This document shows positions 5,924 through 55,335 of a stretch of DNA of 64,000 bases, piece after piece (position 1 is the stretch's first letter; each line of letters begins with the position of its first letter). A program made the position numbers and the translations under genes. Source of the DNA: Minisyncoccota bacterium (GTDB lineage: Bacteria; Patescibacteriota; Minisyncoccia; Phycocordibacterales; UBA9973); the NCBI GenBank assembly GCA_041661005.1, contig JBAZVG010000001.1, positions 196,917 through 260,916 on the forward strand, written 5' to 3'. The notes under the pieces are model-generated. The model worked only from the letters and a program-made list of their open reading frames with translations, was not told the DNA's origin and did not search any database.

Positions 5924-6058
5924 GTTCTTCAAAAACAAAATAGCTACTTTTAAAAACCCGCATAAAATTCTGCTGAATTTTTGCTAAGACTTCGGCCCGT
6001 CGGCCTCCGTACGATTTTTAAAAGCACTATTTTATTTTTGAAGAATTGTTTAAACTAT

Positions 6059-6817
6059 ATGAAAATAAAAGAACATTTAGATAAAAATAATTTACATCAT
6101 GCTTATCTAGTAGAGGGCATACGTGAAGAGATTGTGTCGGAGATTTTTAATTTTTTGAAGGATTTAAACATTAAGACTTCCGGCAATCCTGATTTTTGCC
6201 ATATAACAATTGATAATTTTAAAATTGACGAGGCATTTGATCTGCGCGCCATGTCTTCAAATAAAAGCTTTGCCCTTGGCCATAGCCCTACGGGCGAGCC
6301 AGGCGAGGCTTCCTTTAAGAAAGTTTTCCTTGTTTGTGTGAACAGCTTTTCTTTAGATGCGCAGAATGTTTTGCTCAAAATGTTTGAAGAACCGATAGAG
6401 AACACGCATTTTTTTCTAGTTGTGCCAGATGTAAATGTTCTTTTGAAAACATTAGTTTCTAGATTTTATTTAATAAAAAATGAAAATTTAAATAATGAAA
6501 CAGAAGAAGCAGAGAAATTTATAAATATGTCTTTACAAAAGAGAATAGATTTTATAAAAGAATTGTTGTTAGAACCGGAGGAGAAAGATGAAGACGGGAA
6601 TGAAATTGTTCTTTTGGATTCATCTCGCTCAAAAGCACTGAAATTCTTGAATGCTCTGGAATTAACTCTGCATAAAAACCTAGTGTCAAGGGCGGGCTTT
6701 GACACTAGGTTTTTTGAGCAAATTTTCAAAGTCCGTGAATTTCTCCGTATGCCAGGTTCTTCCGCTAAAACTCTAATGGAGTCCGTGGCGTTGTTGATAC
6801 CGGAAAAAATATCTTAA
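6059..6817 (+). CDS. holB: DNA polymerase III delta' subunit-like (HolB), degenerate AAA+ fold
   Basis: HAYLVEG..., DNFKIDEAFDLR, NSFSLDAQNVLLKMFEEP and T.FFLVV match the delta' pattern (HAYLF ... AANALLKTLEEPP). The ORF extends to 5981 with a non-ATG start; 6059 is the first ATG in a good position. Confidence 0.55.
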   Translation: MKIKEHLDKNNLHHAYLVEGIREEIVSEIFNFLKDLNIKTSGNPDFCHITIDNFKIDEAFDLRAMSSNKSFALGHSPTGEPGEASFKKVFLVCVNSFSLDAQNVLLKMFEEPIENTHFFLVVPDVNVLLKTLVSRFYLIKNENLNNETEEAEKFINMSLQKRIDFIKELLLEPEEKDEDGNEIVLLDSSRSKALKFLNALELTLHKNLVSRAGFDTRFFEQIFKVREFLRMPGSSAKTLMESVALLIPEKIS

Positions 6818-6856: not shown

Positions 6857-8581
6857 ATGGACAATATTAGTAAAAATAGAATATGTCAAAATTGTCGAGG
6901 TGAATTTGTAATCGAATCGGAGGATTTTAATTTCTACGAAAAGATGAAAGTTCCTGCGCCGACTTTTTGTCCGGAGTGTCGACTCATCAGGAGGCTTGTG
7001 TTGAGAAATGAGCGTATTTTATACAAACGTGAGTGTAATTTATGTAAAAAAAATATTATTTCGATTTATCATCAATCTGTACCTTTTCCAGTGTATTGTC
7101 TTCAATGCTGGTACGGCGATGGCTGGGATCCAGTTTCTTTCGGGCGGGACTATGACTTCTCTAGGCCCTTTTTTGAACAATGGAAAGGATTTTCCGATTC
7201 TGCTCCACGACTTGCTTTATGGCACAGAAATGCGATCAATTCCGATTACTCGAGCTTTGTAGGAGAGTCGAAGAATGTTTATTTATCAGTCTCGGTAGTT
7301 CTTGGATCAGAAAATGTATTTTATTCAAAATTTGTGGATAAATCAACGGATATTGTTGATTGTTTGAATATTAAAGACGGACAAATTCTTTATGAAGACA
7401 TAGAGGGCGAAAAAAATTACAATTGCCAGCACCTTTTCTTATCAAAGAATTGTATTGATTCTTTTTTTCTCGTTGACTGCACAAATTGCAGTAATTGTTT
7501 ACTTTCCCATAATTTGCGTAATAAAGAATTTTACATTCGTAATGTGAAATATTCAAAAGAAGAATATTTTAAAGAATTGGAAAAAATTAATTTAAAAAGC
7601 AGAGCGTCAAGAAAAATTTCATTGGAAGAATTTGAAAAAATCAAAATAAAATCTATTTATCGTTTTGCCAATATTGTAAAATCTGTGAACTCAACAGGGA
7701 ATAATCTTTTAAATGTTAAAAATTGTAAAAATTGTTTCGAAGTTTATGATGCTGAAAATTTAAAATATTGTTATCGGGTATTGAGATCTTTTAAAGATTC
7801 CATGGATACGAGTTATGGGATGAAATCTGAATTAATTTATGAATATATAACTGGCGCTAATACTGATTATAATGTGAAATTTTCTTCCTCTGGAATAAAT
7901 TATGTGCAAAATGCCGAATATACTGATTGTTGCATTAATTGTAATAATATTTTTGGTTGCATTTCTCTGAAGAATAAAGAAAACGCGGTTTTTAATAAAA
8001 TTTACACTAAAGAAGAATTTTTTAAACTTCGTGAAAAAATTATTGACCACATGAATGAAATGCCCTATGTTGACCAAAAGGGAAGAGTTTATAAATATGG
8101 AGAATTTTTCCCAATAGAATTGTCTCCGTTTGCCTACAATGAAACTTTGGCGCAGGAGATAGCTCCGATTACAGAGAAGCAAGCAAGCGCAGAAGGTTAT
8201 CCATGGCGCAAGTCGGACCAAAAGAATTTCAAAATTACAATTCCTGCGGAAGATATTCCAGACAACATCAATGAAGTAAGTGACAAAATTTTGAATGAAG
8301 TTTTGGGTTGCGCGCATGAAGGGAAATGTGAACATCAGTGTAATGAAGCTTTTCGCATAACCAATTATGAATTAAATTTTTATAAAAAACACAGTATACC
8401 ATTGCCGATTCTTTGTCAGAATTGCCGTTATTATGAAAGATCGAAAGTTATGCCATCACTCAAATTGTGGCACAGAAAGTGTATGAAAAAAGGTTGCGAA
8501 AATGAATTTGAAACCTCATATGCTCCAAATCGGCCGGAGATTATTTATTGTGAGCGTTGTTATCAGCAAGAAGTTTATTAA
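6857..8581 (+). CDS. Large cysteine-rich protein of unknown function (574 aa), paralog of 55332-57041
   Basis: ~40 Cys. N- and C-terminal modules read CxxC ... FY.KM.VP.PT.CP.CR, with internal C.NC.NCF.C..L.NK repeats. Clearly alignable end-to-end with the second copy. Confidence 0.8.
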   Translation: MDNISKNRICQNCRGEFVIESEDFNFYEKMKVPAPTFCPECRLIRRLVLRNERILYKRECNLCKKNIISIYHQSVPFPVYCLQCWYGDGWDPVSFGRDYDFSRPFFEQWKGFSDSAPRLALWHRNAINSDYSSFVGESKNVYLSVSVVLGSENVFYSKFVDKSTDIVDCLNIKDGQILYEDIEGEKNYNCQHLFLSKNCIDSFFLVDCTNCSNCLLSHNLRNKEFYIRNVKYSKEEYFKELEKINLKSRASRKISLEEFEKIKIKSIYRFANIVKSVNSTGNNLLNVKNCKNCFEVYDAENLKYCYRVLRSFKDSMDTSYGMKSELIYEYITGANTDYNVKFSSSGINYVQNAEYTDCCINCNNIFGCISLKNKENAVFNKIYTKEEFFKLREKIIDHMNEMPYVDQKGRVYKYGEFFPIELSPFAYNETLAQEIAPITEKQASAEGYPWRKSDQKNFKITIPAEDIPDNINEVSDKILNEVLGCAHEGKCEHQCNEAFRITNYELNFYKKHSIPLPILCQNCRYYERSKVMPSLKLWHRKCMKKGCENEFETSYAPNRPEIIYCERCYQQEVY

Positions 8582-11275: not shown

Positions 11276-11293
11276 AATAATCAAACTTTTTCC

Positions 11294-11366
11294 GGTACGA
11301 ATTTTTTTAAGCTTAAAAAATCCTGAAATTCTCTGCTCGTCAGCCTCGAAACCCCTCCAAAAGTTT
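11294..11366 (+). repeat. 72-bp intergenic repeat, copy 1 (GGTACGRATTTTTTTAAGCTTAAAAAATCCTGAAGTTYTCGGCTCGTCAGCCTCGAAACCCC..AAAAGTT)
   Basis: Three near-identical copies in this window (11294, 14908, 26738), all outside CDSs. Contains a perfect palindrome GATTTTTTTAAGCTTAAAAAAATC. Confidence 0.65.
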
Positions 11367-11416
11367 ATTATTTTATATATTTTGAAAAAAACAATTATCA
11401 AGGTATACTGTTTCCT

Positions 11417-12391: not shown

Positions 12392-13600
12392 TTGAAAAAT
12401 AATTTACCTCTTTCCTATATTGAAATTTCTAAAAAGAATTTGATTCACAATATCAAACAATTTAGGAATTTAATAAAAGCGGGAACTAAGATTTCTGTAG
12501 CCATAAAAGGCAATGCTTATGGCCATGGACAAAATATCGTAGCAAAAATTCTTGAGCCACACGTAGATTATTTTCAAGTAAATAACGTGGAAGAGCTTGA
12601 ATCATTGCGTAAAATAAGTCAGAAAAAAGCTTTTGTTTTAGGGTATGTGCAAAATTCGGATTTACCACGTGCTATACGATCAAATTGTATTTTGACTGTC
12701 TTCTCTCTCGGTCAATTAAAAGAAATAAACAAGATATCAAAGAAGCTTAAAAAAATACAAGAAGTTTGTGTCCCAGTTGATGCATATTTAGGGCGTGAAG
12801 GATTTTTATTTAGTGACTTGGGCGAGATTTTCGAAGAAATAAAAAAATCTGGATACGTAAAATTTACAAGTATCTATGCGCATTTTGCAAATATTGAAGA
12901 TGTGTCAAATTTTACTCATGCGCAAAAACAGATTAAGGAATATGAAAAAGCTTTAGAATTGGCGAAAATGTTCGGTTTTGAAAACCCGCCTAGACCCGTT
13001 TCGACGCAAGGCGAGCTCGGCGAGGCTGGCCCGCCTAGACTCGGCGAGGCTGGTTTGCAAACACATATATCTGCCACTTCTGGAATTTTGGTTTATGAAA
13101 AAGATAGTGGAATTAATTCAATCGTGCGATTGGGTATCGGCGCATACGGCATGTGGCCATCAGAACATTTAAAAAAAGTTTATGAAAATGAAAAATTCAA
13201 TCTGAAACCAGTGTTGTCATGGAAAACAAAGATCGCGCAAGTAAAAATCTTAGAAAAAGGGAATACCGTTGGTTATGGATTGACCTATAAAACAAATCAG
13301 AAAACAAAAATAGCAATTATCCCTCAAGGATATGCCGATGGTCTAGATCGTGGTCTTTCAAACAAGGGAGAGGTTTTGATCGGGGGCGCTCGATGTAAAA
13401 TCATAGGCAGGGTATCGATGAATATGTTTGCGGTTAATGTAAATCATTTGTCAGTTGTTAAAGTCGGCGACGAAGTTGTGATTATCGGAATTCAAAATAA
13501 AGAGAAAATTACGGCAGAGCAGGTGGCGAAAAAATTAGATACGATAAATTATGAAATTACCACGCGGATAAGTTCTTTATTGCCGAGAGTTATTACGTAG
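12392..13600 (+). CDS. alr: Alanine racemase
   Basis: PLP-lysine motif AIKGNAYGHG and the C-terminal beta domain. Carries in-frame 45-nt and 24-nt repeat copies (12985-13053). Confidence 0.85.
   Translation: MKNNLPLSYIEISKKNLIHNIKQFRNLIKAGTKISVAIKGNAYGHGQNIVAKILEPHVDYFQVNNVEELESLRKISQKKAFVLGYVQNSDLPRAIRSNCILTVFSLGQLKEINKISKKLKKIQEVCVPVDAYLGREGFLFSDLGEIFEEIKKSGYVKFTSIYAHFANIEDVSNFTHAQKQIKEYEKALELAKMFGFENPPRPVSTQGELGEAGPPRLGEAGLQTHISATSGILVYEKDSGINSIVRLGIGAYGMWPSEHLKKVYENEKFNLKPVLSWKTKIAQVKILEKGNTVGYGLTYKTNQKTKIAIIPQGYADGLDRGLSNKGEVLIGGARCKIIGRVSMNMFAVNVNHLSVVKVGDEVVIIGIQNKEKITAEQVAKKLDTINYEITTRISSLLPRVIT
12985..13053 (+). repeat. In-frame 45-nt palindromic element (12985-13029) plus adjacent 24-nt deletion derivative (13030-13053) inside alr
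   Basis: CCCGCCTAGACCCGTTTCGACGCAAGGCGAGCTCGGCGAGGCTGG followed by CCCGCCTAGACTCGGCGAGGCTGG. Translated as PRPVSTQGELGEAG then PPRLGEAG. Other copies lie at 14046, 29298 and 54860. Confidence 0.75.
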
Positions 13601-13965: not shown

Positions 13966-14883
13966 TTATTTGGTTAATAATTTCCGCTTTGTTTTTCGCT
14001 GTTGGTGAATTTTTGTCAGGCGAATTTTCTTAGAAGCCCGCCTAGACCCGCTTCGATGCGAAGCGAGCTCGGCGAGGCTGGCATCAAACCATTTTATTTC
14101 TTTATCGCGCTTAAACCATGTCATTTGACGTTTAGCGTATTTTAGAGTTTCAGTGACGACTTTTTCTGGCGTCGGTTTGTAGTATTCAAAACCCAATTCT
14201 TTCAGTCGTTTTTCTGACACACCATTCTTTTTTAACTTTTTAATTTCATTAAGTAAGCCATCTTTGAACATCTTTTTGACCCTTTTTTCTACTTTCTGTC
14301 TTAGTTTATCCTGCGGTAAATACAAGCCTATTTTTATAAATTTATACGGAGGAGACTTCTCCGTAATTTTTGGAACTTTACCGAGAGCTTTCACTATTTC
14401 AATTGCCCTGATTAATCTGATTTTATTTTTTGGGTCTATATTCTTTGCTCGCTCGGGGTCTATTCTTTTTAAATACTCAAATAATGCTATCGCTGATTTT
14501 GAGTATAGTTCTTTACGAAGCTTTTCATTTGGCGGAACTTCTGGGAAAATAATACCTTTAGTCATTGCATCAATGTAAAATCCCGTGCCTCCGCAAATTA
14601 TCGGAGTTTTACCTCGAGCGATTATTTCTTTTATTTTATCTTCAGCTAATTCTTTATATTGCGCTACAGTAAATTTTCTTTTAGGGTTCGCGATGTCTAG
14701 CAGATGATGGGGGACGCCTCGCATTTCTTTTCTTGTTATTTTTCCCGTGCCAATATCAAGGCCTTTGTAAACTTGTCGTGAATCAGCTGAAATTATTTCT
14801 CCATCTATTTTTTTAGCAATCTTTACGGCTAAATCACTTTTACCTGTAGCTGTTTGACCTAATATGATAATGATTGTGGGCAC
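13966..14883 (-). CDS. miaA: tRNA dimethylallyltransferase
   Basis: P-loop GQTATGKS, DSRQVYKGLDIGT(G)K. Likely GTG start at 14883 giving MPTIIIILGQTATGKS. The ORF track extends it to 15003 by reading through the intergenic repeat. The C-terminal tail contains an in-frame copy of the 45-nt element. Confidence 0.85.
   Translation of the reverse strand: MPTIIIILGQTATGKSDLAVKIAKKIDGEIISADSRQVYKGLDIGTGKITRKEMRGVPHHLLDIANPKRKFTVAQYKELAEDKIKEIIARGKTPIICGGTGFYIDAMTKGIIFPEVPPNEKLRKELYSKSAIALFEYLKRIDPERAKNIDPKNKIRLIRAIEIVKALGKVPKITEKSPPYKFIKIGLYLPQDKLRQKVEKRVKKMFKDGLLNEIKKLKKNGVSEKRLKELGFEYYKPTPEKVVTETLKYAKRQMTWFKRDKEIKWFDASLAELASHRSGSRRASKKIRLTKIHQQRKTKRKLLTK
14046..14090 (+). repeat. 45-nt palindromic element, copy within the miaA 3' region (read on the reverse strand as ASLAELASHRSGSRRA)
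   Basis: CCCGCCTAGACCCGCTTCGATGCGAAGCGAGCTCGGCGAGGCTGG, 45 nt, with internal hairpin CGCTTCG-ATG-CGAAGCG. Confidence 0.75.
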
Positions 14884-14907
14884 AGATTGAAAAACGAACT
14901 TTTTTTT

Positions 14908-14979
14908 GGTACGGATTTTTTGAAGCTTGAAAAATCCTGAAGTTCTCGGCTCGTCAGCCTCGAAACCCCGCAAAAAGTT
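14908..14979 (+). repeat. 72-bp intergenic repeat, copy 2 (in the miaA 5' leader / murA 3' flank)
   Basis: GGTACGGATTTTTTGAAGCTTGAAAAATCCTGAAGTTCTCGGCTCGTCAGCCTCGAAACCCCGCAAAAAGTTG. Confidence 0.65.
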
Positions 14980-15002
14980 GTTTTTTATTATTCGCCTCTG
15001 CA

Positions 15003-16538
15003 TTAATTTCCCTTGATTATTTTAATATCTGCGCCGATGGAATTCAATCGCTCGGCGATTTCTTCGTAACCACGATTTATCATATAAACGTTTCGTAGTA
15101 TTGAAGTGCCACTAGCTCCAAGCATTGAGATAAGTATTACCATTGATGGTCGTAAGGCCGGTGGGCAAACGACTTGAGCTCCCTTTAACGCTGTTCCGCC
15201 GTTGATATAGAGGCGATGTGGATCTGCGAGGGTAATATCTGCGCCTAGGCGGTTTAATTCAGTCAGATATATCGCGCGATTCTCATAAACCCAGTCATGG
15301 ATCATTGTTTGACCTTTGGCCTTTATGGCAATAGGCACAAAGAATGGCAGGTTGTCTATATTTATTCCGGGATAGGGATTGGAGTGTAATTTATCATAAA
15401 GAGCTTTTAGTTTGCTTGGGAAAATTTCTACATCTACTAATTTTGTTCGTCCATTAAAAGAATAATAAATTTTTGAAGCTTTGAATTTTAAATTCATTCT
15501 TTTTAGTTTTTCCAATTCTAAAGAAAGAAAGTCTATGGGGACGCGAGTGATGCTGAGTCTCGAGTCAGTGATAATTCCAGCAGAAATAAACATCATGGAT
15601 TCTATAGGGTCTTCACTGTTCCAATATTCTATATCTTTATTTATATTTGCTACGCCATGCACGGTCAGATTGGCAGTGCCGATACCTTCTATTTTTACAC
15701 CCAAAGCTTCAAGAAAAAAACAAACTTCTTGCACCATATAGTTTGCGCTGGCAAAGTTTATTTTTGTGGCGCCAGGTATAAGAGCAGAAGCCATCAAAAC
15801 ATTTTCACAGGCCGTGTCTCCAGATTCATACATTACTATTTCACTTGGTTTTAGTTTTCGTGAAGAGATTTCATAATTCTTTGCCGTAGTCTTTACTTTT
15901 ACCCCGAGTTTTTCTAGGGCGTAGATGTGGGCGGCTATTGTGCGTTTACCTAGATTGCATCCATGTGGATGGGGGAGAGAAAAGGTTGATAATTTATGAA
16001 TGAGTGGACCCATGAGCATTACGACTGAACGAGTTTTGACCGCTGACTCTATGTTTATATTTTCTAAATTAAATTTCTCTCCTGGTGTGATGGTTAAAGT
16101 ATTCTGGTTTAGCCATTTTATTGCGACCCCGATACTTTCGAGAATTTCAATGACCCGATACACTTCCTCGATTCGCGCTATGCCATGCAAGGTTGTTGTC
16201 CCCCTGTTTAAGAGCGAAGCGCAAAGAAGCCCGACCGAACCATTTTTAGAAAAATTAGTTTTGATAGTTCCACTTAATTTTTTCCCTCCATGCACTTCGA
16301 AATCGATCGAATCATTTATAGAAACTATTTGATGATCTAAAACATTGCTTATTTTTAAAAGTAATTCAGTTGTAAAATTTTGTTCGCCTTTTTCCATTCG
16401 GGGGATAGAACTTTGAGAAGTATTCAGCGCTTTAGCAAATTGCTCTTGAGTCATTCCGCGGTGTTCGCGCAATTCTTTGATAAAATAACCTATCTTTTGT
16501 TGTTCGGTCTGTACTGTTGATTTTATATTTTTTGTCAT
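15003..16538 (-). CDS. murA: UDP-N-acetylglucosamine 1-carboxyvinyltransferase (MurA) with an N-terminal HTH_XRE DNA-binding domain fusion
   Basis: N-terminal ~75 aa reads GYFIKELREHRGMTQEQFAKALNTSQSSIPRMEKGE (XRE HTH). The rest is an EPT fold with a GCNLGKR loop and ~420 aa MurA-like sequence. Confidence 0.8.
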   Translation of the reverse strand: MTKNIKSTVQTEQQKIGYFIKELREHRGMTQEQFAKALNTSQSSIPRMEKGEQNFTTELLLKISNVLDHQIVSINDSIDFEVHGGKKLSGTIKTNFSKNGSVGLLCASLLNRGTTTLHGIARIEEVYRVIEILESIGVAIKWLNQNTLTITPGEKFNLENINIESAVKTRSVVMLMGPLIHKLSTFSLPHPHGCNLGKRTIAAHIYALEKLGVKVKTTAKNYEISSRKLKPSEIVMYESGDTACENVLMASALIPGATKINFASANYMVQEVCFFLEALGVKIEGIGTANLTVHGVANINKDIEYWNSEDPIESMMFISAGIITDSRLSITRVPIDFLSLELEKLKRMNLKFKASKIYYSFNGRTKLVDVEIFPSKLKALYDKLHSNPYPGINIDNLPFFVPIAIKAKGQTMIHDWVYENRAIYLTELNRLGADITLADPHRLYINGGTALKGAQVVCPPALRPSMVILISMLGASGTSILRNVYMINRGYEEIAERLNSIGADIKIIKGN

Positions 16539-19506: not shown

Positions 19507-20046
19507 TCATAATTTCCAGAAGTTGATAATTTTTATAAATTTTTCCACATTCTTTGAAATTCTAATTATATATTTAACTCTATTTTTCTTTATGTCCAAG
19601 ACTTTTCTTGCTTTTATTGCAAAGCCAATTTCTTGGAGCATATCCTCTATATCTCTAATTAGAGTATAACAAACTGACGTAAAATTTACCATTTTGTAGC
19701 CTCGATCACTATAGATTGATCCGTCTGTTTGGAATAATCCTCGCAAACATTCTTTTCTATAAACCTTATTTTCCTTGATCCAGCTAGGCACGCCTACCTT
19801 CTGTTTAATTTTTGAACCACCTTTAGCTCCCCATCCCAATATTTTTTCTAAATCATTTGAATAAATACATATGTCTAAGGCATTAACTCGATCTGTGATA
19901 GAAATTTTGTTTTGAGTAAAAATTATTTTTAGATTTTTAATTATATTTTCTACAATTAGAGGATACTTTTTATCACAAGTAATTCTAAGTCTAACAGCTC
20001 TTCCATTTGGATTCGACAAATTACCATCCCCGAGAGCTATGCCCAT
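19507..20046 (-). CDS. LAGLIDADG-family homing endonuclease (double-motif, free-standing)
   Basis: Two LAGLIDADG motifs: IMGIALGDGNL and LRGLFQTDGSIY. The ORF track starts it at 20127, but that extension is antisense to tRNA-Leu, so the internal ATG at 20046 is more plausible. Confidence 0.7.
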   Translation of the reverse strand: MGIALGDGNLSNPNGRAVRLRITCDKKYPLIVENIIKNLKIIFTQNKISITDRVNALDICIYSNDLEKILGWGAKGGSKIKQKVGVPSWIKENKVYRKECLRGLFQTDGSIYSDRGYKMVNFTSVCYTLIRDIEDMLQEIGFAIKARKVLDIKKNRVKYIIRISKNVEKFIKIINFWKL

Positions 20047-20086
20047 TATGTAGGCTATAGATTTTTTATTATTTATATGAGGCAAG

Positions 20087-20170
20087 TGCCGGGAGGGAGA
20101 CTCGAACTCCCACGGGGTTGCCCCCAAACGATTTTGAGTCGTTCGCGTAAACCAATTCCGCCATCCCGGC
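20087..20170 (-). tRNA. tRNA-Leu (anticodon CAA), type II with long variable arm
   Basis: Reverse complement reads GCCGGGA ... anticodon loop CUCAAAA ... variable stem GGGG-GCAA-CCCC ... T-loop TTCGAGT ... TCCCGGC-A. Confidence 0.8.
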
Positions 20171-21212: not shown

Positions 21213-23465
21213 CTATATCTCAATCTTCTTTATTTTGTGGGGGTTATGCATGGGGCAAGATTTATTGGAGCAACGTTCTGGGATAGTTTTGGTGCCTTCC
21301 ATCATCAGACTGCCACATTCTTTACATATCGCGCCAGTTGGTTTTGCCTTGATCGCAAACTTGCATTTGGGATAGTTTGAACAAGAATAAAAAATACCAA
21401 ATCGTCCACGACGTTCACTGATATCTCCTGTTTTACAAAGGGGACACAACACGCCAGTTCTCTTTTTTGCTTCATCTGCTTCATCGCTTTTGATAAATTT
21501 ACATTTTGGATAACGTGAGCAAGAAATAAATGTGCCAGTGCCATCGCGTCTTTCTCTGACAACAAGTTTTCCACCACCAGATTTACCTTTTTTTTCACCG
21601 CATTCTGGACATATTTCTCCGGTTTCTGCTGGACCTTTTAATTCTGTGCCGTCGAGCATAAGGGCTCCATCACAATCAGGATATTTGGAACAAGAATAAA
21701 ATTTACCTGCGCGAGAAAGTTTTATTATCATTTCGGATCCGCATTTCGGGCATTTTATGTTTGAGGGCGCTGATCCCAAGTTTGTCGCTTTTTCCAATTT
21801 TTCTTTTGATTTTACTTCCTTTAGAAAAGGTCCGTAAAAATCTCTCAGAGTTTTTTCATATTCGCGTTCTCCTCTCGATATCTCGTCAAGCTCGTCTTCC
21901 ATTTCTGCTGTAAAACTATCTGAAATATAATTCATAAAATGTTTTTCCAAAAAATCTGAAACAACTTCACCGACATCAGTGGGGAATAATGTTTTTCCTT
22001 CTTTGTTCACATAACCTCTCTCTTCAATTGTTTTCATGATGGATGCATATGTGGACGGTCTGCCTATCCCTCTAGCTTCTAATTCTTTGACCAGTCCTGC
22101 TTCGCTGTATCTGTCGGGTGGCAGGGTGAATTTTTCTTCATTTACGAGATCAAGTAGTTTCAACTCTTCTTCTGCTTTGCACACTGGTAGTTCTACATCA
22201 TCGCCTCGAGCGTCGCTATCCACCTTGAGCCATCCAGGAAAAAGCAGACGGGAACCATTGATGGAAAAATCTGGCAAGTCCTCATGTCCTTTTATAACGG
22301 CTGAAATTTTAGTTTTCAATAATTTTGCGTCAGTCATCTGCGAGGATATGGCGCGCTCCCAGATCAATCTATACAATTTGTCTTGCTCATCAGTGCCTAC
22401 AATCATATTTGTTATGTGCGTTGGACGTATGGCCTCATGCGCTTCCTGGGCGTTTTTTGATTTTGTTTTGTAAATTCTAGCTTCAGCATATTCTTTTCCA
22501 TATTTATTTTGGATAAAAGAAATTATTTGCGTTTGCGCAGCTGCAGATAAGTTTGTGCTGTCGGTTCGCATATATGTGATATGTCCAGCCTCGTAAAGTT
22601 TCTGCGCTATTTGCATGGTGCGAGAAGGTGAATACCCGAGACGTGAACTCGCTGTTTGTTGCAATGTAGAAGTGGTAAAAGGCGCGCGGGGCGAACGTTT
22701 CTGTTCAGATTCCTTTACCCCACTAACAATCCATGTGCCGGCTTTACCCTCGGTCATTATTTTTTGTACTAATTTTTCATCTCGTGGTTCTTCTGAACAT
22801 TCTAGAGTAATTTTTTCCCCTCCTGCCTGAGGAGGGGTGCCCTTTAGGGCGGGGTGGTGGGAGGTTTCAAACAGTCCGAATATTTTCCAATATTTCTCTG
22901 GAACAAAGGCGCGGATTTCACGTTCACGTTCCATTACTATGCGAAGCGCAGGGGACTGCACGCGTCCGGCAGAAAGTCCGTATCGCACTTTTTTCCAAAT
23001 AAGTCCCGAAAGGTCATAGCCCACAAGACGGTCCAAGACTCGGCGCGCCTCTTGCGCCTTTCTTAATGCTGTGTCTATCTGGCGTGGATGTTGCAGGGCT
23101 TCTTCTACGGCTTCTTTAGTAATTTCATGAAAAGTTACTCGCTCAATGGGGGCTTTTACTTTTTTATCTTCTTTTAAAAGAGTTTCTATATGCCAAGCAA
23201 TGGCTTCTCCTTCGCGATCAGGGTCGGTCGCTAAAATTATTTCTTTCGCCTTTTCCGCCAATCCTTGCAATTCGTGCACAATTTTTTCTTTACCTTTAGA
23301 AATTTCATAATGCGGAATAAAACCTCCTTCGATATCAATTGCTATTTTATTTGATTTCGGTAAATCACGAATATGTCCGACAGATGCACGCACAGTAAAA
23401 GCGCCTTCCAAATATTTTTCAATCGTCTTTGCTTTTGATGGTGACTCAACAATTAATAATTTCAT
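21213..23465 (-). CDS. topA: DNA topoisomerase I
   Basis: TOPRIM N-terminus MKLLIVESPSKAKTI, active-site region, C-terminal C4 zinc ribbons; 750 aa. Confidence 0.9.
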   Translation of the reverse strand: MKLLIVESPSKAKTIEKYLEGAFTVRASVGHIRDLPKSNKIAIDIEGGFIPHYEISKGKEKIVHELQGLAEKAKEIILATDPDREGEAIAWHIETLLKEDKKVKAPIERVTFHEITKEAVEEALQHPRQIDTALRKAQEARRVLDRLVGYDLSGLIWKKVRYGLSAGRVQSPALRIVMEREREIRAFVPEKYWKIFGLFETSHHPALKGTPPQAGGEKITLECSEEPRDEKLVQKIMTEGKAGTWIVSGVKESEQKRSPRAPFTTSTLQQTASSRLGYSPSRTMQIAQKLYEAGHITYMRTDSTNLSAAAQTQIISFIQNKYGKEYAEARIYKTKSKNAQEAHEAIRPTHITNMIVGTDEQDKLYRLIWERAISSQMTDAKLLKTKISAVIKGHEDLPDFSINGSRLLFPGWLKVDSDARGDDVELPVCKAEEELKLLDLVNEEKFTLPPDRYSEAGLVKELEARGIGRPSTYASIMKTIEERGYVNKEGKTLFPTDVGEVVSDFLEKHFMNYISDSFTAEMEDELDEISRGEREYEKTLRDFYGPFLKEVKSKEKLEKATNLGSAPSNIKCPKCGSEMIIKLSRAGKFYSCSKYPDCDGALMLDGTELKGPAETGEICPECGEKKGKSGGGKLVVRERRDGTGTFISCSRYPKCKFIKSDEADEAKKRTGVLCPLCKTGDISERRGRFGIFYSCSNYPKCKFAIKAKPTGAICKECGSLMMEGTKTIPERCSNKSCPMHNPHKIKKIEI

Positions 23466-26710: not shown

Positions 26711-26737
26711 ACTCTTTATCGGTATATCTTTTTCTAG

Positions 26738-26810
26738 GGTACGGATTTTTTTAAGCTTAAAAAATCCTGAAGTTTTCGGCTCGTCAGCCTCAAAACCCCC
26801 TAAAAAAGTT
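26738..26810 (+). repeat. 72-bp intergenic repeat, copy 3
   Basis: GGTACGGATTTTTTTAAGCTTAAAAAATCCTGAAGTTTTCGGCTCGTCAGCCTCAAAACCCCCTAAAAAAGTT. Confidence 0.65.
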
Positions 26811-26837
26811 ATCCCTCAATGAGTTTACTTTATTTTT

Positions 26838-28663: not shown

Positions 28664-29722
28664 ATGCACGACTTGGCATTATATCGCAAATATCGGCCGA
28701 AAAACTTCAAGGAAGTCTTGGGGCAAGATCATATCGTAAAAGTGCTGGAAAGCTCTGTAGAAGCCAACAAGGTTTCCCACGCATACCTTTTTGTAGGTTC
28801 GCGTGGCACAGGCAAAACTTCCGTCGCCAGAATTTTTGCAAATGAAATCGGTGTATCAGCCAATGACTTATATGAGATAGACGCCGCCAGCAATAGGGGA
28901 ATCGAAGATATAAAAGAATTGCGTGATGGCGCGCGAGTATTGCCTTTTGATTCAAAATACAAAGTTTATATAATCGACGAAGTGCATATGCTCTCCAAAG
29001 ACGCTTGGGGTGCGTTATTGAAGACCCTAGAAGAACCTCCAAAACATGTTATTTTTATTCTAGCTACCACTGAGTTTCATAAAGTGCCTGAGACTATTAT
29101 CTCACGCTGTCAGGTTTTCACTTTCAAAAAAGCATCAGACGTAGTTTGTAAAAAAATGCTGACTGATGTTGGGAAGAAAGAAGGTTTCGATTTGGATGCC
29201 GGCTCGGCCGAGCTTTTAGCTGTATTATCTGATGGATCGTTCAGGGATGGATTGGGAGAGTTGCAAAAAGTTTTGAATTTCAGTGGAAGTAAGAAAACCC
29301 GCCTAGACTCGGCGAGGCTGGTCAATAGAGAAGATGTTGAAAAAATAACCGGCGCGCCAAAGGCGACTTTGGTAAATGATTTTATTTCAGCAATTGCAGA
29401 AAAAAATATTGAAAAAGGAATATCTGTCGTGCGATCTGCGGCTGAAGAAAATTTAGATATGGAATTATATTTGAAACTCATTATCGCAAAATTCCGTATG
29501 GCGATAATTTTGCGATACGCGCCAAAATTAAAAGGAGAGATGATAGGGGATTTATCTGAAGCTGATTTAGAATTTCTGCAGATTTTAATAAAAGAAAGTG
29601 GGGAGATGTTTAATTCTTCTACTCTAGCGACACTTTTAGAAGCTTATCAGAATATAGATAATGCGTTTATTACCGAGTTACCACTGGAGCTTGCGTTAGT
29701 GAAGATTTTAAGCAAAGAGTAA
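28664..29722 (+). CDS. dnaX: DNA polymerase III gamma/tau subunit (short form)
   Basis: YRKYRP..F.EV.GQ.H ... HAYLF.G.RGTGKTS.ARI.A ... AWGALLKTLEEPP. Carries an in-frame 24-nt repeat copy. Confidence 0.85.
   Translation: MHDLALYRKYRPKNFKEVLGQDHIVKVLESSVEANKVSHAYLFVGSRGTGKTSVARIFANEIGVSANDLYEIDAASNRGIEDIKELRDGARVLPFDSKYKVYIIDEVHMLSKDAWGALLKTLEEPPKHVIFILATTEFHKVPETIISRCQVFTFKKASDVVCKKMLTDVGKKEGFDLDAGSAELLAVLSDGSFRDGLGELQKVLNFSGSKKTRLDSARLVNREDVEKITGAPKATLVNDFISAIAEKNIEKGISVVRSAAEENLDMELYLKLIIAKFRMAIILRYAPKLKGEMIGDLSEADLEFLQILIKESGEMFNSSTLATLLEAYQNIDNAFITELPLELALVKILSKE
29298..29321 (+). repeat. 24-nt short form of the 45-nt element inside dnaX (translated TRLDSARL)
   Basis: CCCGCCTAGACTCGGCGAGGCTGG, identical to the short copy in alr. 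Confidence 0.7.
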
Positions 29723-52365: not shown

Positions 52366-55335
52366 ATGATTTCACGGATATATGTGATACCTAAAAACGA
52401 AGCAACCAAGGCAGATTCTTATTTGATTGACTCTAAATTATCTAAAAAAGAACTTGTAAAACTAGCTCAGACACTTACTAATCCTATTTTGGAGGATTAT
52501 TTTATAGACGAATCTCCAAGAGTTGGAAACTTTTCCCATGCAATCGAAATAGGATTTTTACCGGGGGTCACAGATAATGTCGGCCATACAGTCAAAGAAA
52601 TTGCGACAGATATGCTTCATCTAAAAAAGAATTTCAGTTTGGCGGTTTATACCTCCAAGATTTTTTTTATTAATTCACACGGCCTTGAAGACGCCCAGAA
52701 ACACTCTCTTACTTTATACAATCCGCTTATTGAAAGAGCCCTTTTTGTAGAGATAAAATCCGGAAAAATAGATTTGCCAAATAAAATACCTGAAGTTGTT
52801 TTAAGAAAAGGTGTGTCAATTTTACCTGTTTCACTTTCAGTGTCAGATGAAGAACTTATAAAAATAGGGAAAGAAGGAATACTGGACGAGACAAATTTAC
52901 GCAGGGGACCTTTAGCGCTTGATCTATCTTCAATGCAAGCTATTCAAAAATATTTTTCTTCGCTAAAAAGAAACCCGACTGATATAGAGCTCGAATCTCT
53001 AGCTCAAACTTGGTCAGAACATTGCAAGCACACTATTTTTGCAAATGAAATAGATGATATTAAAGATGGCTTGTATAAAACTTACATAAAAGGGGCGACA
53101 AATTTAATAAGAAAACAAAAGACAGAGAGAGGTCAGCAGGATTTTTGTGTTTCTGTTTTTAGTGATAATGCTGGCGGAATAATTTTTGATGAAGATTATT
53201 TAATAACACACAAAGTCGAAACCCATAACAGCCCTTCGGCTCTCGATCCATTTGGTGGAGCAATCACAGGCATAGTAGGGGTGAATCGCGACACAATCGG
53301 CTTTGGATTGGGCGCCAAACCGATAGCCAATACTTATGGATTTTGTTTTGGTAATCCGGAAGATACAAGACCGCTTTTTCGAGATAAAGAGCAGAAACAA
53401 AGAATGCTTTTACCGAAACGCATCATGGAAGGGGTGGTAAAGGGAATAAACGTCGGAGGAAACTGCTCCGGGATTCCGACTCTTTCTGGATTTATCAAAT
53501 TTGACGATAGATATAGGGGGAAACCTTTGGTTTTTGCCGGAACTGTTGGATTAATTCCAAGAAACTTATCTATCCATGGAGGGAAAAAACAACTATCGCA
53601 TGAAAAACAGGCACGAGTAGGGGATTATATAGTTATGGTTGGTGGAAGGGTAGGACTCGATGGAATACATGGAGCCACTTTTTCTTCCGTAACTATGGAT
53701 TCGACTTCTCCTGCGACAGCAGTGCAGATAGGAGATCCGATAACTCAAAAGAAACTTAGCGATAGCATCGTCAAAGAAGCGCGCGATATGAATTTATATA
53801 CTAGCATCACAGATAACGGTGCTGGTGGGCTGTCATGTTCAGTATCCGAGATGGCAAAAGAATGCGGTGGAGCAAAAGTTTTCATAGAAAAAATACCACT
53901 TAAATATCCAGGTCTTCTTCCTTGGGAAATTTGGATTTCTGAATCGCAAGAACGAATGACTTTGTCTGTTCCAAAAAATAAATGGAAAATGTTCCAAAAG
54001 TTGATGGAAAGTCGGGGGGTAGAAGCGATTGTGATTGGAGAATTCACAAATTCTGGAAAAGTTATCGTGCAATATAAAGGAAAAAAAATTATGGATATAG
54101 ATATGGAGTTTTTGCACAACGGATTGCCGAAACATTATTTAAACACTACTCCAGTGATAATCAAAAATCTTGAGCCTGCATTACCTAAAGGTCTATCACG
54201 CACAAAGGTTCTAGAAAAATTGTTAGGTGAAAAAAATATCAGCGGATTTGCTTTCATTTCCGAGCAGTATGACCACGAGGTGCAAGCATCTTCCGTGTTA
54301 AAACCGTTGTCCGGGAGGGGACGTATTAATACCGACAGTCAAATTTTTCGTCCGGTTTTGAATTCAAACAAAGGAGTTGTGTTGTCATCCTCAAGCTATC
54401 CTTCATACGGAGACATAAGCTCTTATGACATGGCATCTTGCGCGCTCGATACTGCAATTCGAAACATAATTGCATCAGGTGGTACGCTTTCACACCTTGC
54501 GATACTAGATAATTTCTGCTGGTGCTCATCAAATGATCCGAAACGGCTATACCAGCTTGTAGAGGCTGTAAAGGCTTGTCATGACACAGCTATCGGCTAC
54601 GGGACGCCGTTTATCTCTGGTAAAGACAGTATGTTCAATGATTTTAAAGGATATGATGAAAAAGGTAATCCTGTTTCTATCTCCATCCCGCCAACCCTTT
54701 TGATTTCTGCGATTAGTGTAATGCCTGATTTATATAAAACAGTTTCACCAGAATTTAAAAATAGTGGGGATATAATTTATTTACTGGGAGAAACGCATGA
54801 TGAATTAGGCGCAAGCGAATATTATAAACTTTTGGTAAAACAAGAGGGGAATAATGCAACCCACCTAGACCCGCTTCGATGCGAGGCGAGCTCGGCGAGG
54901 CTGGTAGGCAATAGTGTGCCAAAAGTTAATTTAGAAAAAAATCTAAAAACTTATTTAGCGTTAGAGAAGGCTATTCAAAAAGAACTGTTAGCTTCTTCGC
55001 TTTCTGTAACTTCCGGAGGCTTTGGAATCGCCTTAACTAAAGCATCTATTGGTGGAATGCTCGGATGTGAAATAAACATCAAAAACATGCTGGGGGGCTC
55101 AAATTTGGCCGATGTGAAGCTTTTTTCTGAAAGCCAGGGTAGGATATTGGTTTCTGTATCTCCTAAAAACACAAAGCAGTTTGAAAGAATAATGCAGGAA
55201 ATTCCTTGTGCTAAACTTGGAAAAGTAACAAAAAATGATAAGTTTGTAATTTTAGATGGTAAAGATAAAATTGTCGAAACAAATATTAAAAAATTGCACG
55301 CCATTTATCATAAATTTTCGAATTCACAACAATGA
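52366..55335 (+). CDS. purL: Phosphoribosylformylglycinamidine synthase subunit PurL with a large-type N-terminal (PurS-like) domain; glutaminase encoded separately
   Basis: RNPTDIELESLAQTWSEHCKHTIF (compare NP.DIEL.M.AQ.NSEHCRHKIF), VETHNSPSALDPFGGA, AIR-synthase-like domains; 989 aa. Carries an in-frame 45-nt element at 54860-54904. Confidence 0.85.
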   Translation: MISRIYVIPKNEATKADSYLIDSKLSKKELVKLAQTLTNPILEDYFIDESPRVGNFSHAIEIGFLPGVTDNVGHTVKEIATDMLHLKKNFSLAVYTSKIFFINSHGLEDAQKHSLTLYNPLIERALFVEIKSGKIDLPNKIPEVVLRKGVSILPVSLSVSDEELIKIGKEGILDETNLRRGPLALDLSSMQAIQKYFSSLKRNPTDIELESLAQTWSEHCKHTIFANEIDDIKDGLYKTYIKGATNLIRKQKTERGQQDFCVSVFSDNAGGIIFDEDYLITHKVETHNSPSALDPFGGAITGIVGVNRDTIGFGLGAKPIANTYGFCFGNPEDTRPLFRDKEQKQRMLLPKRIMEGVVKGINVGGNCSGIPTLSGFIKFDDRYRGKPLVFAGTVGLIPRNLSIHGGKKQLSHEKQARVGDYIVMVGGRVGLDGIHGATFSSVTMDSTSPATAVQIGDPITQKKLSDSIVKEARDMNLYTSITDNGAGGLSCSVSEMAKECGGAKVFIEKIPLKYPGLLPWEIWISESQERMTLSVPKNKWKMFQKLMESRGVEAIVIGEFTNSGKVIVQYKGKKIMDIDMEFLHNGLPKHYLNTTPVIIKNLEPALPKGLSRTKVLEKLLGEKNISGFAFISEQYDHEVQASSVLKPLSGRGRINTDSQIFRPVLNSNKGVVLSSSSYPSYGDISSYDMASCALDTAIRNIIASGGTLSHLAILDNFCWCSSNDPKRLYQLVEAVKACHDTAIGYGTPFISGKDSMFNDFKGYDEKGNPVSISIPPTLLISAISVMPDLYKTVSPEFKNSGDIIYLLGETHDELGASEYYKLLVKQEGNNATHLDPLRCEASSARLVGNSVPKVNLEKNLKTYLALEKAIQKELLASSLSVTSGGFGIALTKASIGGMLGCEINIKNMLGGSNLADVKLFSESQGRILVSVSPKNTKQFERIMQEIPCAKLGKVTKNDKFVILDGKDKIVETNIKKLHAIYHKFSNSQQ
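54860..54904 (+). repeat. 45-nt palindromic element copy inside purL (translated THLDPLRCEASSARL)
   Basis: CCCACCTAGACCCGCTTCGATGCGAGGCGAGCTCGGCGAGGCTGG. Confidence 0.75.

What the first reader, a model, noticed from the sequence alone, without database searches (positions are those of the whole stretch)
12985..13053. A 45-nt palindromic element inserted in frame in alr (full copy plus a 24-nt derivative): founding copy of an RPE-like family with at least six copies in 64 kb
The 45-mer CCCGCCTAGACCCGCTTCGATGCGAAGCGAGCTCGGCGAGGCTGG, which carries an internal hairpin CGCTTCG-ATG-CGAAGCG, recurs with over 90% identity at 14046-14090 (miaA), 54860-54904 (purL) and, as an identical 24-nt internal-deletion form CCCGCCTAGACTCGGCGAGGCTGG, at 13030-13053 (alr) and 29298-29321 (dnaX). 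Every copy lies inside a conserved housekeeping CDS, has the same DNA orientation, and has a length that is a multiple of 3 (45 or 24), so each host ORF stays open. The element is read in three different frames: PRPVSTQGELGEAG in alr, T(H/R)LD..ARL in purL and dnaX, and ASLAELASHRSGSRRA on the reverse strand in miaA. The only forward frame not used is the one that would produce a TAG stop. This is the signature of Rickettsia palindromic elements (selfish hairpin repeats tolerated as peptide insertions). I am not aware of it being described for a small AT-rich CPR-like genome, and the GC-rich element contrasts sharply with its hosts.
Basis: seen in the sequence. Interest (0 to 1): 0.85.

Follow-up and report, generated by a model that had tools for sequence, protein, structure and literature searches.

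The report
Tiny in-frame mobile repeats in Patescibacteria
A 24-base GC-rich sequence, sometimes carrying a nested 21-base hairpin, has been pasted without any target duplication into loops of four housekeeping genes of this ultra-small bacterium and into more than a hundred places across the whole Patescibacteria (CPR) group, so it behaves like an exceptionally small selfish mobile element that proteins tolerate as 8-15 extra residues.

Summary
The repeat is real, but there are five copies at four loci, not six. They are 45 nt at 12985-13029 (alr), 14037-14081 (miaA) and 54860-54904 (purL), and 24 nt at 13030-13053 (alr) and 29298-29321 (dnaX).

- **Basic unit.** The unit is the 24-mer CCCGCCTAGACTCGGCGAGGCTGG. 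The 45-mer is that unit with a separate 21-nt hairpin module nested at TAGA|CTCG.
- **True insertions.** Orthologues of Alr, DnaX, MiaA and PurL mostly lack the insert. Removing it exactly restores the orthologue consensus.
- **Distribution.** The exact 24-mer occurs in more than 116 loci of about 80 genome assemblies, spanning many Patescibacteria lineages. About 65% of copies lie in long open frames, in both orientations and only in the four stop-free frames.
- **Junctions.** The insert adds exactly 24 nt with no target-site duplication, between a purine and a pyrimidine.
- **Age.** At dnaX, five of six filled alleles carry an identical 24-mer although synonymous sites are saturated. Decayed copies exist elsewhere. 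Recurrent recent insertion at permissive hot spots fits this best.
- **Mobilising enzyme.** No transposase is linked to the copies, and orientation shows no replication-strand bias.

Verdict: a REP/RPE-like miniature selfish element family, apparently undescribed for CPR. It is a new variant of a known kind, and the mobilising mechanism is unresolved.

The parts
12985..13029 (+). 45-nt composite copy in alr (24-mer core split by a nested 21-nt module at 12995-13015). The hairpin is degraded. It encodes PPRPVSTQGELGEAG.
   Evidence: (D3)
13030..13053 (+). Exact 24-nt core unit CCCGCCTAGACTCGGCGAGGCTGG, in tandem with the 45-mer in alr. It encodes PPRLGEAG.
   Evidence: Orthologues have the empty site FGFKN|LQTH. 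Codon view.
14037..14081 (+). 45-nt composite copy with a perfect 7-bp hairpin (nested module at 14047-14067). It lies near the 3' end of miaA (host gene on the - strand) and is read as SLAELASHRSGSRRA.
   Evidence: Removal restores KWFDA|SKKI as in orthologues. L138 has the 24-mer at the same site.
29298..29321 (+). Exact 24-nt core unit in the domain linker of dnaX. It encodes (T)RLDSARL.
54860..54904 (+). 45-nt composite copy in purL (G4A in the core; nested module at 54870-54890). It encodes (T)HLDPLRCEASSARL.
   Evidence: It is absent from the PurL of L118 and L007.
12392..13600 (+). Host gene alr (alanine racemase)
   Evidence: PF00842, PF01168
13966..15003 (-). Host gene miaA (tRNA isopentenyltransferase). 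The ORF's 5' end overlaps an unrelated 97-nt repeat, so the true start is probably downstream.
   Evidence: (IPPT in the syntenic L118)
28664..29722 (+). Host gene dnaX (DNA polymerase III gamma/tau)
52366..55335 (+). Host gene purL (FGAM synthase)

Best explanation
**What it is.** The 24-mer is a non-autonomous, ultra-small selfish insertion module. The related hairpin modules share its CCCGC... start and ...GCGAG(G) 3' motif (terminal in the hairpin modules, followed by CTGG in the 24-mer) and behave the same way.

**Shown**
- Copies are added as exact units of 24 nt, or 45 nt for the composite.
- No target-site duplication is made.
- Insertion falls preferentially between a purine and a pyrimidine.
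- Either orientation occurs, anywhere in the genome, including inside each other's loops and next to each other.

**Inferred**
- The unit length is a multiple of three, and four of its six frames lack stops. Insertions in permissive surface loops or linkers of essential proteins are therefore tolerated as 8-15 extra residues and persist. Other genic insertions are purged. This would explain why the same few sites (the Alr loop, the DnaX linker, the MiaA tail) are hit repeatedly, and by several module families.
- Copies that mutate stop moving and decay. Intact copies are young relative to host-gene divergence.
- Movement needs a trans-acting enzyme encoded elsewhere and not identified here.
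- Junctions are exact and duplication-free. The preferred target (Y-G-G|C) resembles the element's own end-to-start junction (TGG|CCC). Both points argue against a DDE transposase. They favour a hairpin- or single-strand-recognising (HUH/RAYT-like) enzyme or a site-specific 'junction' recombination mechanism.
For: **Multi-copy beyond chance.**

**True insertions**
- About 100 of 120 Alr orthologues are empty at FGFKN|LQTH, including the closest one.
- Most of 120 DnaX orthologues read KKIKRED. Exact removal of the 24 nt gives AAA A|TC..., which is that consensus.
- MiaA orthologues read KWFDASKK.
- The PurL of L118 and L007 lacks the insert.

**Exact unit and no target duplication.** A 30-nt hairpin module occurs with and without a nested 24-mer. 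The difference is exactly 24 nt, with unambiguous boundaries in L070 and L093.

**Target preference (116 unique sites)**
- Position -1 is a purine in 85%, +1 is a pyrimidine in 93%, and -3 is a pyrimidine in 81%.
- The preference holds in AT-rich flanks: 24/29 and 26/29 against a background of about 50%.

**Selection filter**
- 65% of 123 copies lie in open frames of at least 120 aa, and only in the stop-free frames.
- The Pro/Gly-rich readings are favoured: 32 and 25 copies against 13 and 9.

**Spread.** Lineages include Parcubacteria-type, Microgenomates-type and Doudnabacteria.

**Youth and recurrence**
- The dnaX genes share only 46-58% identical codons at identical residues.
- The 24-mer is nucleotide-identical in 5 of 6 filled alleles. 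Two of these were found through protein similarity only.
- Insert-bearing Alr and DnaX sequences are scattered in neighbour-joining trees. The Alr tree needs 9 and 8 state changes for the two families.

**Decay**
- Copies with 1-3 substitutions occur in relatives.
- Protein-level variants include PPRFGEVG and SFGLGEDT.

**Several families at the same sites.**

**Nesting and tandem arrays.**
Against: - No mobilising enzyme was found. No ORF family recurs near copies in more than 5 of 116 loci.
- The window holds no HUH or DDE transposase. It has only an island-borne serine recombinase and a LAGLIDADG protein.
- No empty allele of the alr site was found in metagenome contigs by an exact-flank search, so ongoing mobility is not shown directly.
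- Orientation is unbiased relative to GC skew (57:61). This removes the expected signature of lagging-strand, single-strand insertion.
- The 24-mer alone does not fold better than shuffled sequence.
- Repeated occupation of exactly the same nucleotide position in diverged lineages needs either strong site preference or very few permissive sites. The flank logo shows only a weak target motif.
- Neighbour-joining trees without support values cannot exclude fewer gains combined with losses.
Confidence: 0.6

Rival explanations
1. The 24-mer is a functional DNA or RNA signal that is selected at the nucleotide level, rather than a selfish element. Examples would be a binding site for a conserved chromosome-organising protein, or a DNA-uptake sequence for the competence machinery on which CPR bacteria depend. 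In this reading it spreads among lineages by transformation and recombination.
For: - The sequence is perfectly identical across very distant Patescibacteria lineages.
- It is identical in 5 of 6 dnaX alleles whose synonymous sites are saturated.
- It occurs at orthologous sites in diverged genomes.
- It is orientation-independent.
- It occurs in both coding and non-coding DNA.
- dprA is present in the window neighbourhood (dprA annotated in the syntenic loci L118 and L119).
Against: - Its presence is patchy: about 85-90% of close Alr and DnaX orthologues lack it.
- Density is low and very uneven: 5 copies in 64 kb here, against 4 copies (two of them decayed) in 852 kb of relatives.
- Decayed copies persist in place.
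- Unrelated module families occupy the same sites.
- It arrives as an insertion rather than by point mutation, unlike known uptake sequences.
Confidence: 0.1
2. Copies arise without a dedicated enzyme, by replication template switching or break repair. A stalled or broken end primes on a hairpin-forming copy elsewhere (or on a tandem junction), using 1-3 nt of microhomology. It copies the unit and then returns.
For: - There is no target duplication.
- Flank bases resemble the unit's own ends (left flank ..YGG, right flank C..). This is what microhomology to a tandem or circular junction would give.
- Tandem and partial tandem copies exist in L005, L069, L022 and L067.
- Copies nest in hairpin loops.
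- No linked transposase was found.
Against: - Unit boundaries are invariant at single-nucleotide precision in more than 120 copies from about 80 genomes. Template switching would be expected to give ragged ends.
- Identity across distant lineages needs horizontal transfer of a donor copy in any case.
Confidence: 0.15
3. The inserts are ancient native parts of these proteins, inherited vertically and kept by selection on the peptide.
For: The same residues occur at the same positions in several orthologues (TRLDSARL in DnaX, PPRLGEAG in Alr).
Against: - The same DNA is read in four different frames in different proteins.
- Most orthologues lack it.
- It also lies in intergenic DNA.
- There are no synonymous changes, although flanking synonymous sites are saturated.
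Confidence: 0.03
4. It is an assembly, adapter or chimera artefact.
For: It is a short GC-rich sequence, identical in many metagenome assemblies.
Against: - It is found in assemblies from many groups and methods, including a single-cell genome and a closed 2.9-Mb chromosome.
- Within genes it is always in frame and stop-free.
- It has point-mutated descendants at orthologous sites.
- It is absent from plasmid, phage and viral collections.
Confidence: 0.02

Closest known systems
Rickettsia palindromic elements (RPE-1 to RPE-10)
   Same: - They are dispersed palindromic repeats.
- They are inserted in frame into many unrelated housekeeping genes and are absent from orthologues.
- They are tolerated as extra peptide segments.
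- No transposase is known for them (PMC10969869).
   Different: - RPEs are described as about 150 bp and each family encodes a conserved peptide. Here the unit is 24 nt (45 nt as a composite) and is read in four frames.
- The host group is different (Patescibacteria, not Rickettsia).
- The exact sequence is shared across class- to phylum-level lineages rather than within one genus.
- Sequence homology to RPEs was not tested.
REPs (repetitive extragenic palindromes), including intragenic GTAG/CGTC-tagged REPs such as RPE-4 and RPE-6 of R. conorii and those of Opitutus terrae (Di Nocera et al. 2013, PMC3733652)
   Same: - They are in the 20-40 bp size class.
- They have a stem-loop character and form dimers and clusters.
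- Some copies lie inside genes, notably replication and repair genes.
- They are proposed to be miniature transposons. The CGTC type has no dedicated transposase.
   Different: - There is no GTAG or CGTC tag at either end.
- The 24-mer is only weakly palindromic.
- Most copies are genic rather than extragenic.
- No RAYT was seen in the window or near the copies.
[quoted passage not shown]
   Same: They are short, non-autonomous and multi-copy, and sometimes give in-frame fusions.
   Different: - There is no target-site duplication.
- The element is far below the usual MITE size.
- It has only imperfect short terminal complementarity (CCCGCCT.../...AGGCTGG).
- No parent IS was identified.
GC clusters and 'byp' elements of yeast mitochondrial genomes (from my own knowledge, not tested here)
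   Same: They are short GC-rich hairpin modules scattered in an AT-rich compact genome. They nest in one another, sometimes lie inside protein-coding genes, and have an unknown mobility mechanism.
   Different: - They occur in organelles, not bacteria.
- Byp elements are skipped by the ribosome, whereas these inserts are stop-free and in frame, so they are presumably translated.
IS200/IS605-derived palindrome-associated elements
   Same: They insert without a target-site duplication, use hairpins as recognition features, and can sit next to each other.
   Different: - There is no strongly conserved tetra- or pentanucleotide on the 5' side.
- There is no replication-strand bias.
- There are no separate left-end and right-end hairpins, and the element is much shorter.

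Membership tests
Rickettsia palindromic elements (RPE) | Multi-copy repeat inserted in frame in unrelated conserved genes and absent from orthologues | tested here: met
Rickettsia palindromic elements (RPE) | Element of about 100-150 bp belonging to one of the ten Rickettsia sequence families, each encoding a conserved peptide | tested here: not met
   The unit is 24 nt (45 nt as a composite) and is read in four frames. The size definition is from PMC10969869. Direct sequence comparison with RPE consensus sequences was not done.
Rickettsia palindromic elements (RPE) | Insert lies on the protein surface, compatible with the fold | tested here: inconclusive
   In the AlphaFold2 model of Alr, residues 200-220 are coil with pLDDT below 50, between helix 175-193 and strand 223-228. 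The whole model is weak (mean pLDDT 63). The DnaX site is a variable linker and the MiaA site is the C-terminal tail.
REP (GTAG/CGTC-tagged palindromic repeats) | 20-40 bp imperfect palindrome forming a stem-loop | tested here: inconclusive
   The size fits. The 24-mer folds no better than shuffles (z = -0.3 to -0.6). Only the best 45-mer copy does (z = -2.2 to -3.0).
REP (GTAG/CGTC-tagged palindromic repeats) | Unpaired GTAG or CGTC motif at one end | tested here: not met
   Sequence inspection of both strands of the 24-mer and the nested module shows neither motif at an end. The definition is from PMC3733652.
REP (GTAG/CGTC-tagged palindromic repeats) | Association with a RAYT (Y1/HUH) transposase gene in the genome | tested here: inconclusive
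   There is none among the window's ORFs, and no recurrent ORF family lies near copies in 116 loci. Whole genomes could not be searched.
REP (GTAG/CGTC-tagged palindromic repeats) | Predominantly extragenic, downstream of genes | tested here: not met
   65% of 123 copies lie inside open frames of at least 120 aa.
MITE | Target-site duplication flanking the element | tested here: not met
   Filled and empty versions of a 30-nt host module differ by exactly 24 nt. The empty and filled dnaX and alr sites agree.
MITE | Terminal inverted repeats matching a parent insertion sequence | not tested
   The termini are only partly complementary (CCCGCCT / AGGCTGG).
IS200/IS605-type single-strand elements | Insertion without duplication, 3' of a conserved short target | tested here: inconclusive
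   There is no duplication. The left flank shows only a weak Y-S-R consensus.
IS200/IS605-type single-strand elements | Orientation bias relative to replication direction | tested here: not met
   There are 57 copies on the G-rich strand against 61 on the C-rich strand. Among loci with strong skew the split is 41:38.
DNA uptake sequences (DUS/USS) | Very high, roughly uniform density (about one per kb) in all genomes of the lineage, arising by point substitution | tested here: not met
   There are 5 copies per 64 kb here and 4 per 852 kb in relatives. Copies arrive as 24-nt insertions.

The most novel reading that the evidence does not exclude
The 24-bp unit is an active mobile DNA, one of the smallest known to me. 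It moves by exact, duplication-free insertion and excision at purine|pyrimidine steps, using a so far unknown trans-acting enzyme shared across the Patescibacteria. It repeatedly 'homes' to the same permissive codons of essential genes in lineages that diverged long ago. Its 3n length and stop-free frames are adaptations to life inside the coding sequence of ultra-compact genomes.
Probability: 0.3. Interest if true: 0.8.

Novelty: new variant of a known kind. Interest (0 to 1): 0.62.

Why it matters
**If the reading holds, four things follow.**
1. The Patescibacteria have streamlined genomes of about 1 Mb and are usually described as poor in mobile DNA. They would nonetheless carry a pan-lineage family of selfish modules small enough to live inside essential genes.
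2. These modules are a source of lineage-specific loops in conserved proteins. They are also a likely cause of unexplained length variation in CPR orthologues such as DnaX, Alr, LeuRS and TopA.
3. The exact 24-mer is a convenient marker of recent DNA exchange among very distant CPR lineages.
4. The duplication-free, single-nucleotide-precise junctions point to an unidentified enzyme or process. This makes the old question of how RPE- and REP-like elements move testable by phylogenetic profiling across thousands of CPR genomes.

**Practical consequences**
- The repeats can mislead gene-length, alignment-trimming and contamination checks.
- Two public taxonomic labels were shown to be wrong along the way.

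Tried and rejected
1. **Single-strand or lagging-strand insertion.** All five window copies are on the G-rich strand, which suggested this. It is rejected as a general rule: the split is 57:61 in 118 oriented loci, and four loci in one orientation is p = 0.125.
2. **Linked autonomous partner.** All-against-all clustering of 1,932 ORFs from 116 loci found no family in more than 5 loci.
3. **Phage or plasmid origin.** There was no hit for the 24-mer in IMG/VR, and none for the 69-nt alr tandem in the phage and plasmid collections.
4. **Known RNA family.** Only three tRNAs reach the Rfam gathering threshold in the window, and none lies at the repeats.
5. **Recent empty allele.** An exact-flank pattern for the alr site with a gap of 0-30 found nothing in metagenome contigs. 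This is uninformative rather than negative.
6. **Spread beyond CPR.** Many record titles say Gammaproteobacteria, Bdellovibrionales and so on.
   - The one label tested, a 'Gammaproteobacteria' MAG, has a LeuRS whose nearest named relatives are Levybacteria.
   - A 'Saccharibacteria' contig carries a PurL 66% identical to this Paceibacteria one.
   - The 'Bathyarchaeia' contig is identical to a Moranbacteria contig.
   - I therefore do not claim occurrence outside Patescibacteria. A 2.9-Mb closed chromosome (L016) and a few others remain unchecked.
7. **Universal nucleotide-level constraint.** This was weakened by the unbiased 852-kb sample, where one copy is perfect and three carry 1-3 substitutions.
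8. **Extra family members in the window.** None was found. The 2-mismatch hit to the 14-nt end at 37574 is treated as chance.
Full report
**1. What is in the window**

The stretch 12985-13053 reads CCCGCCTAGACCCGTTTCGACGCAAGGCGAGCTCGGCGAGGCTGG followed directly by CCCGCCTAGACTCGGCGAGGCTGG. It lies in frame in a 402-aa ORF (12392-13600, +) that is an alanine racemase.

- A copy with two mismatches lies at 54860-54904.
- The 24-mer recurs exactly at 29298-29321.
- None of these matches is expected in shuffled sequence.
- Scans with shorter ends, with up to five substitutions and with a loose end-to-end pattern found nothing more. There are therefore five copies at four loci, not six.

The hosts are alr, miaA (13966-15003, - strand), dnaX (28664-29722) and purL (52366-55335). 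The window is AT-rich, about 33-49% GC. It belongs to an 813-kb contig of a Candidatus Paceibacterota MAG whose nearest relatives are Nomurabacteria.

Only the miaA copy has the perfect 7-bp hairpin and folds better than shuffles (z = -2.2 to -3.0). The other 45-mers and the 24-mer do not.

**2. The basic unit and the composite**

None of those loci holds a 45-mer. The only other 45-mer I met is in the dnaX of a relative, L117.

The 21 nt in the middle of the 45-mer (CCCGCTTCG-ATG-CGAAGCGAG) belong to a separate hairpin-module family.
- Elsewhere this family stands alone, at 21, 22 or 30 nt.
- It frequently carries the 24-mer nested in its own loop, giving 45- or 54-nt composites of the opposite nesting order.

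So the 24-mer is the core unit. The window's 45-mer is a core with a nested hairpin module inserted at TAGA|CTCG, apparently propagated as a composite in this clade. It is not the parent of a 24-nt deletion derivative.

In the 24-mer the GCGAGG motif is followed by CTGG, so it is subterminal there. It is terminal in the hairpin modules. Both module types begin with CCCGC, which suggests a common mobilising machinery (inference).

**3. They are insertions**

- **Alr.** Among 120 orthologues about 100 read ...FGFKN|LQTHISATSG with nothing in between. Eleven carry PPRLGEAG or a decayed form (PPRLGEVG, PPRFGEVG, SFGLGEDT). Eleven carry a different 7-residue insert (PRQGGAS and variants), which at DNA level is a 21-nt module of the hairpin family. 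Only this genome has the 45+24 tandem, and its closest orthologue is empty.
- **DnaX.** Among 120 orthologues most read ...LNF-SK-GKKIKREDVEKITG. Seven carry TRLDSARL (one of them TRPDSARL) and one carries the 45-nt version. Others carry at least three unrelated GC-rich insert families at or near the same linker.
- **Codon-level view.** Alignment of filled and empty alleles shows that the insert sits at AAA A|TC. Exact removal restores the KKI(K/N)RED consensus.
- **MiaA.** Orthologues read KWFDASKK... Removing the window's 45 nt restores this. One relative (L138) has the 24-mer at the very same position.
- **PurL.** The orthologues in L118 and L007 lack the insert, and the surrounding segment is variable.
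- **Structure.** An AlphaFold2 model of Alr places the insert in an unstructured, low-confidence loop between a helix and a strand. The model is weak overall.

**4. Anatomy of insertion**

Comparing 30-nt hairpin modules with and without a nested 24-mer gives single-nucleotide boundaries. Exactly 24 nt are added and no target bases are duplicated.

Across 116 distinct sites the base before the element is a purine in 85% and the base after it is a pyrimidine in 93%. The weak consensus Y-(G/C)-G|C resembles the element's own end-to-start junction TGG|CCC. The purine|pyrimidine rule holds in AT-rich flanks (24/29 and 26/29). It also holds for the nesting point of the hairpin module inside the 24-mer (A|C).

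Tandem, partial-tandem and nested copies are common.

**5. Where copies survive**

Of 123 copies in the fetched loci, 65% lie in open frames of at least 120 aa.
- They occur in both orientations relative to the gene (45:34).
- They use only the four stop-free frames.
- The Pro/Gly/Ser-rich readings PPRLGEAG (32) and PASPSLGG (25) are commoner than RLDSARL (13) and SLAESRR (9).
- The remainder are intergenic, often inside larger mosaics of hairpin modules.

Orientation shows no relation to local GC skew (57:61). The uniform + orientation in the window is therefore best read as chance (p = 0.125).

**6. Age and dynamics**

The six dnaX alleles that carry the insert share only 46-58% identical codons at identical residues. 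That is close to synonymous saturation. Even so, the 24 nt are identical in five of them, including two retrieved by protein similarity only. The sixth has two substitutions.

Insert-bearing Alr and DnaX sequences are scattered in neighbour-joining trees. The Alr tree needs nine and eight state changes for the two insert families. These trees carry no support values.

In an unbiased sample of 852 kb around alr in 80 related metagenome contigs there are only four copies, with 0, 1, 3 and 3 substitutions. Copies therefore do decay, and this genome (5 per 64 kb) is comparatively rich.

Taken together, intact copies are much younger than the divergence of their host genes, and the same permissive sites have been hit repeatedly. 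The alternative is nucleotide-level constraint. That is hard to reconcile with the patchy presence, the decayed copies and the occupation of the same sites by unrelated modules.

**7. Search for a mobilising function**

- No protein family recurs near copies.
- Pfam annotation of essentially all sizeable window ORFs shows ordinary housekeeping genes. The exceptions are a large serine recombinase at a tRNA-flanked GC-rich island, a C5 DNA methylase and a LAGLIDADG protein. There is no HUH or DDE transposase.
- The 24-mer is absent from IMG/VR, and the 69-nt alr tandem finds nothing in the phage and plasmid collections.
- An exact-flank search for an empty or single-copy alr allele of this strain found nothing.

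The mechanism is therefore inferred only from junction anatomy. Exact ends, no duplication and a target that mimics the element's own junction argue against DDE transposition. They are compatible with a hairpin- or single-strand-recognising enzyme, a junction-type site-specific recombination, or, less likely given the invariant ends, enzyme-free template switching.

**8. Distribution**

The loci come from about 80 assemblies made by many groups and methods, including a single-cell genome. Named lineages include:
- Paceibacterota, Nomura-, Giovannoni-, Moran-, Falkow-, Buchanan- and Liptonbacteria;
- Levy-, Gottesman- and Curtissbacteria;
- Doudnabacteria.

Labels outside CPR are unreliable. 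One 'Gammaproteobacteria' MAG has a LeuRS whose nearest named relatives are all Levybacteria or Patescibacteria. A 'Saccharibacteria' contig has a PurL 66% identical to this one. A 'Bathyarchaeia' contig is identical to a Moranbacteria contig. I therefore claim a Patescibacteria-wide distribution only.

**9. Comparison with known systems**

Functionally this is the phenomenon described for Rickettsia palindromic elements. Those are about 150 bp, form ten families and are often in frame in housekeeping genes (PMC10969869). It also matches intragenic REPs, which are 20-40 bp, carry GTAG or CGTC tags and include RPE-4 and RPE-6; some lack a dedicated transposase (PMC3733652).

It is not a member of those families:
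- it is shorter than RPEs;
- it lacks the GTAG or CGTC tag;
- it is mostly genic;
- it lacks the duplication and size of MITEs;
- it lacks the strand bias of IS200/IS605-type elements.

From my own knowledge, the nesting of GC-rich hairpin modules in an AT-rich compact genome also recalls yeast mitochondrial GC clusters.

Full-text searches found no description of such elements in CPR and no occurrence of the 24-mer string.

**10. Verdict**

The element is better described as a pan-Patescibacteria family of 21-30-nt insertion modules that nest in one another and enter without target duplication. Its 24-nt member has colonised four essential genes here.

It is a new variant of a known kind. Its unusual features are its size, the exactness of its ends, its identity across very distant lineages and its recurrent use of the same codons. 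The mobilising mechanism remains open.

Noticed in passing
window 11276-11372, 14890-14986, 26720-26816: A second, unrelated repeat family has three + strand copies with a conserved core of about 65 nt (GGTACGGATTTTTTTAAGCTTAAAAAATCCTGAAGTTCTCGGCTCGTCAGCCTCGAAACCCC). Two copies are intergenic, upstream of ddl and dus. One overlaps the annotated 5' end of the miaA ORF. There was no Rfam match even at E <= 1.
   Followed up: partly
window 30696-37600 (tRNA 30696-30766; ORF 30707-32446, - strand): A GC-rich island (44-49% GC against about 36%) begins at a tRNA gene. It has a 579-aa large serine recombinase followed by ORFs without Pfam matches, so it is probably an integrated element. A C5 cytosine DNA methylase lies just beyond it at 38640-39647.
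   Followed up: partly
window 19507-20170 (- strand): A 206-aa LAGLIDADG-domain ORF (19507-20127) abuts or overlaps an 84-nt tRNA call (20087-20170) on the same strand. This may be a homing-endonuclease or tRNA-intron arrangement.
   Followed up: no
window 22816-22865 (topA, - strand); L119: Another GC-rich in-frame insert in topoisomerase I encodes SHHPALKGTPPQAGG. It is shared with L119 and absent from L118 and L120. It resembles the 'LPAQAGG' inserts seen in some DnaX orthologues. A G-rich stretch in purD (61052-61085...LLEEGGGGG...) may be a further case.
   Followed up: partly
window 6279-6312 (holB-like ORF 5981-6817): A GC-rich segment encodes GHSPTGEPGEAS and contains GGCGAGGCT. It has not been compared with orthologues.
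   Followed up: no
DnaX orthologues P0001-P0120; Alr orthologues P0121-P0240: The DnaX linker after LNF and the Alr loop after FGFKN are hot spots for several unrelated mini-insert families. In DnaX these are TPNQSKLGTGQ, HPSLRPPL.KGRVG.G, LPAQAGG and others. In Alr it is PRQGGAS. CPR orthologue length variation may be largely due to such modules.
   Followed up: partly
L001, L013, L027, L053, L059, L068, L088, L095 (MAG223, JAYEHH01): One Patescibacteria MAG carries at least 12 copies of a larger intergenic mosaic of 150-250 nt. It is built from several small hairpin modules, with the 24-mer and other 21-29-nt modules nested at variable positions.
   Followed up: partly
L109/L002/L105 (CAYTCO01), L007, L012 vs L049: Some public taxonomic labels are wrong. 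A 'Gammaproteobacteria' MAG has a Levybacteria-like LeuRS. A 'Saccharibacteria' contig has a Paceibacteria-like PurL. A 'Bathyarchaeia' contig is identical to a Moranbacteria contig.
   Followed up: yes
window 6857-8581 and 55332-57041: Two paralogous ORFs of about 570 aa have 70-80% nucleotide identity over stretches and no Pfam match. One lies directly downstream of purL, and the same position is occupied by a 578-aa ORF in L118.
   Followed up: no
L117 (contig Ga0376277_0000649): A relative whose Alr is only about 70% identical carries the module at two of the same sites as this genome: PPRLGEAG in alr (P0126) and the 45-nt composite in dnaX (P0062). This suggests that the same set of sites fills up wherever the element is active.
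   Followed up: partly
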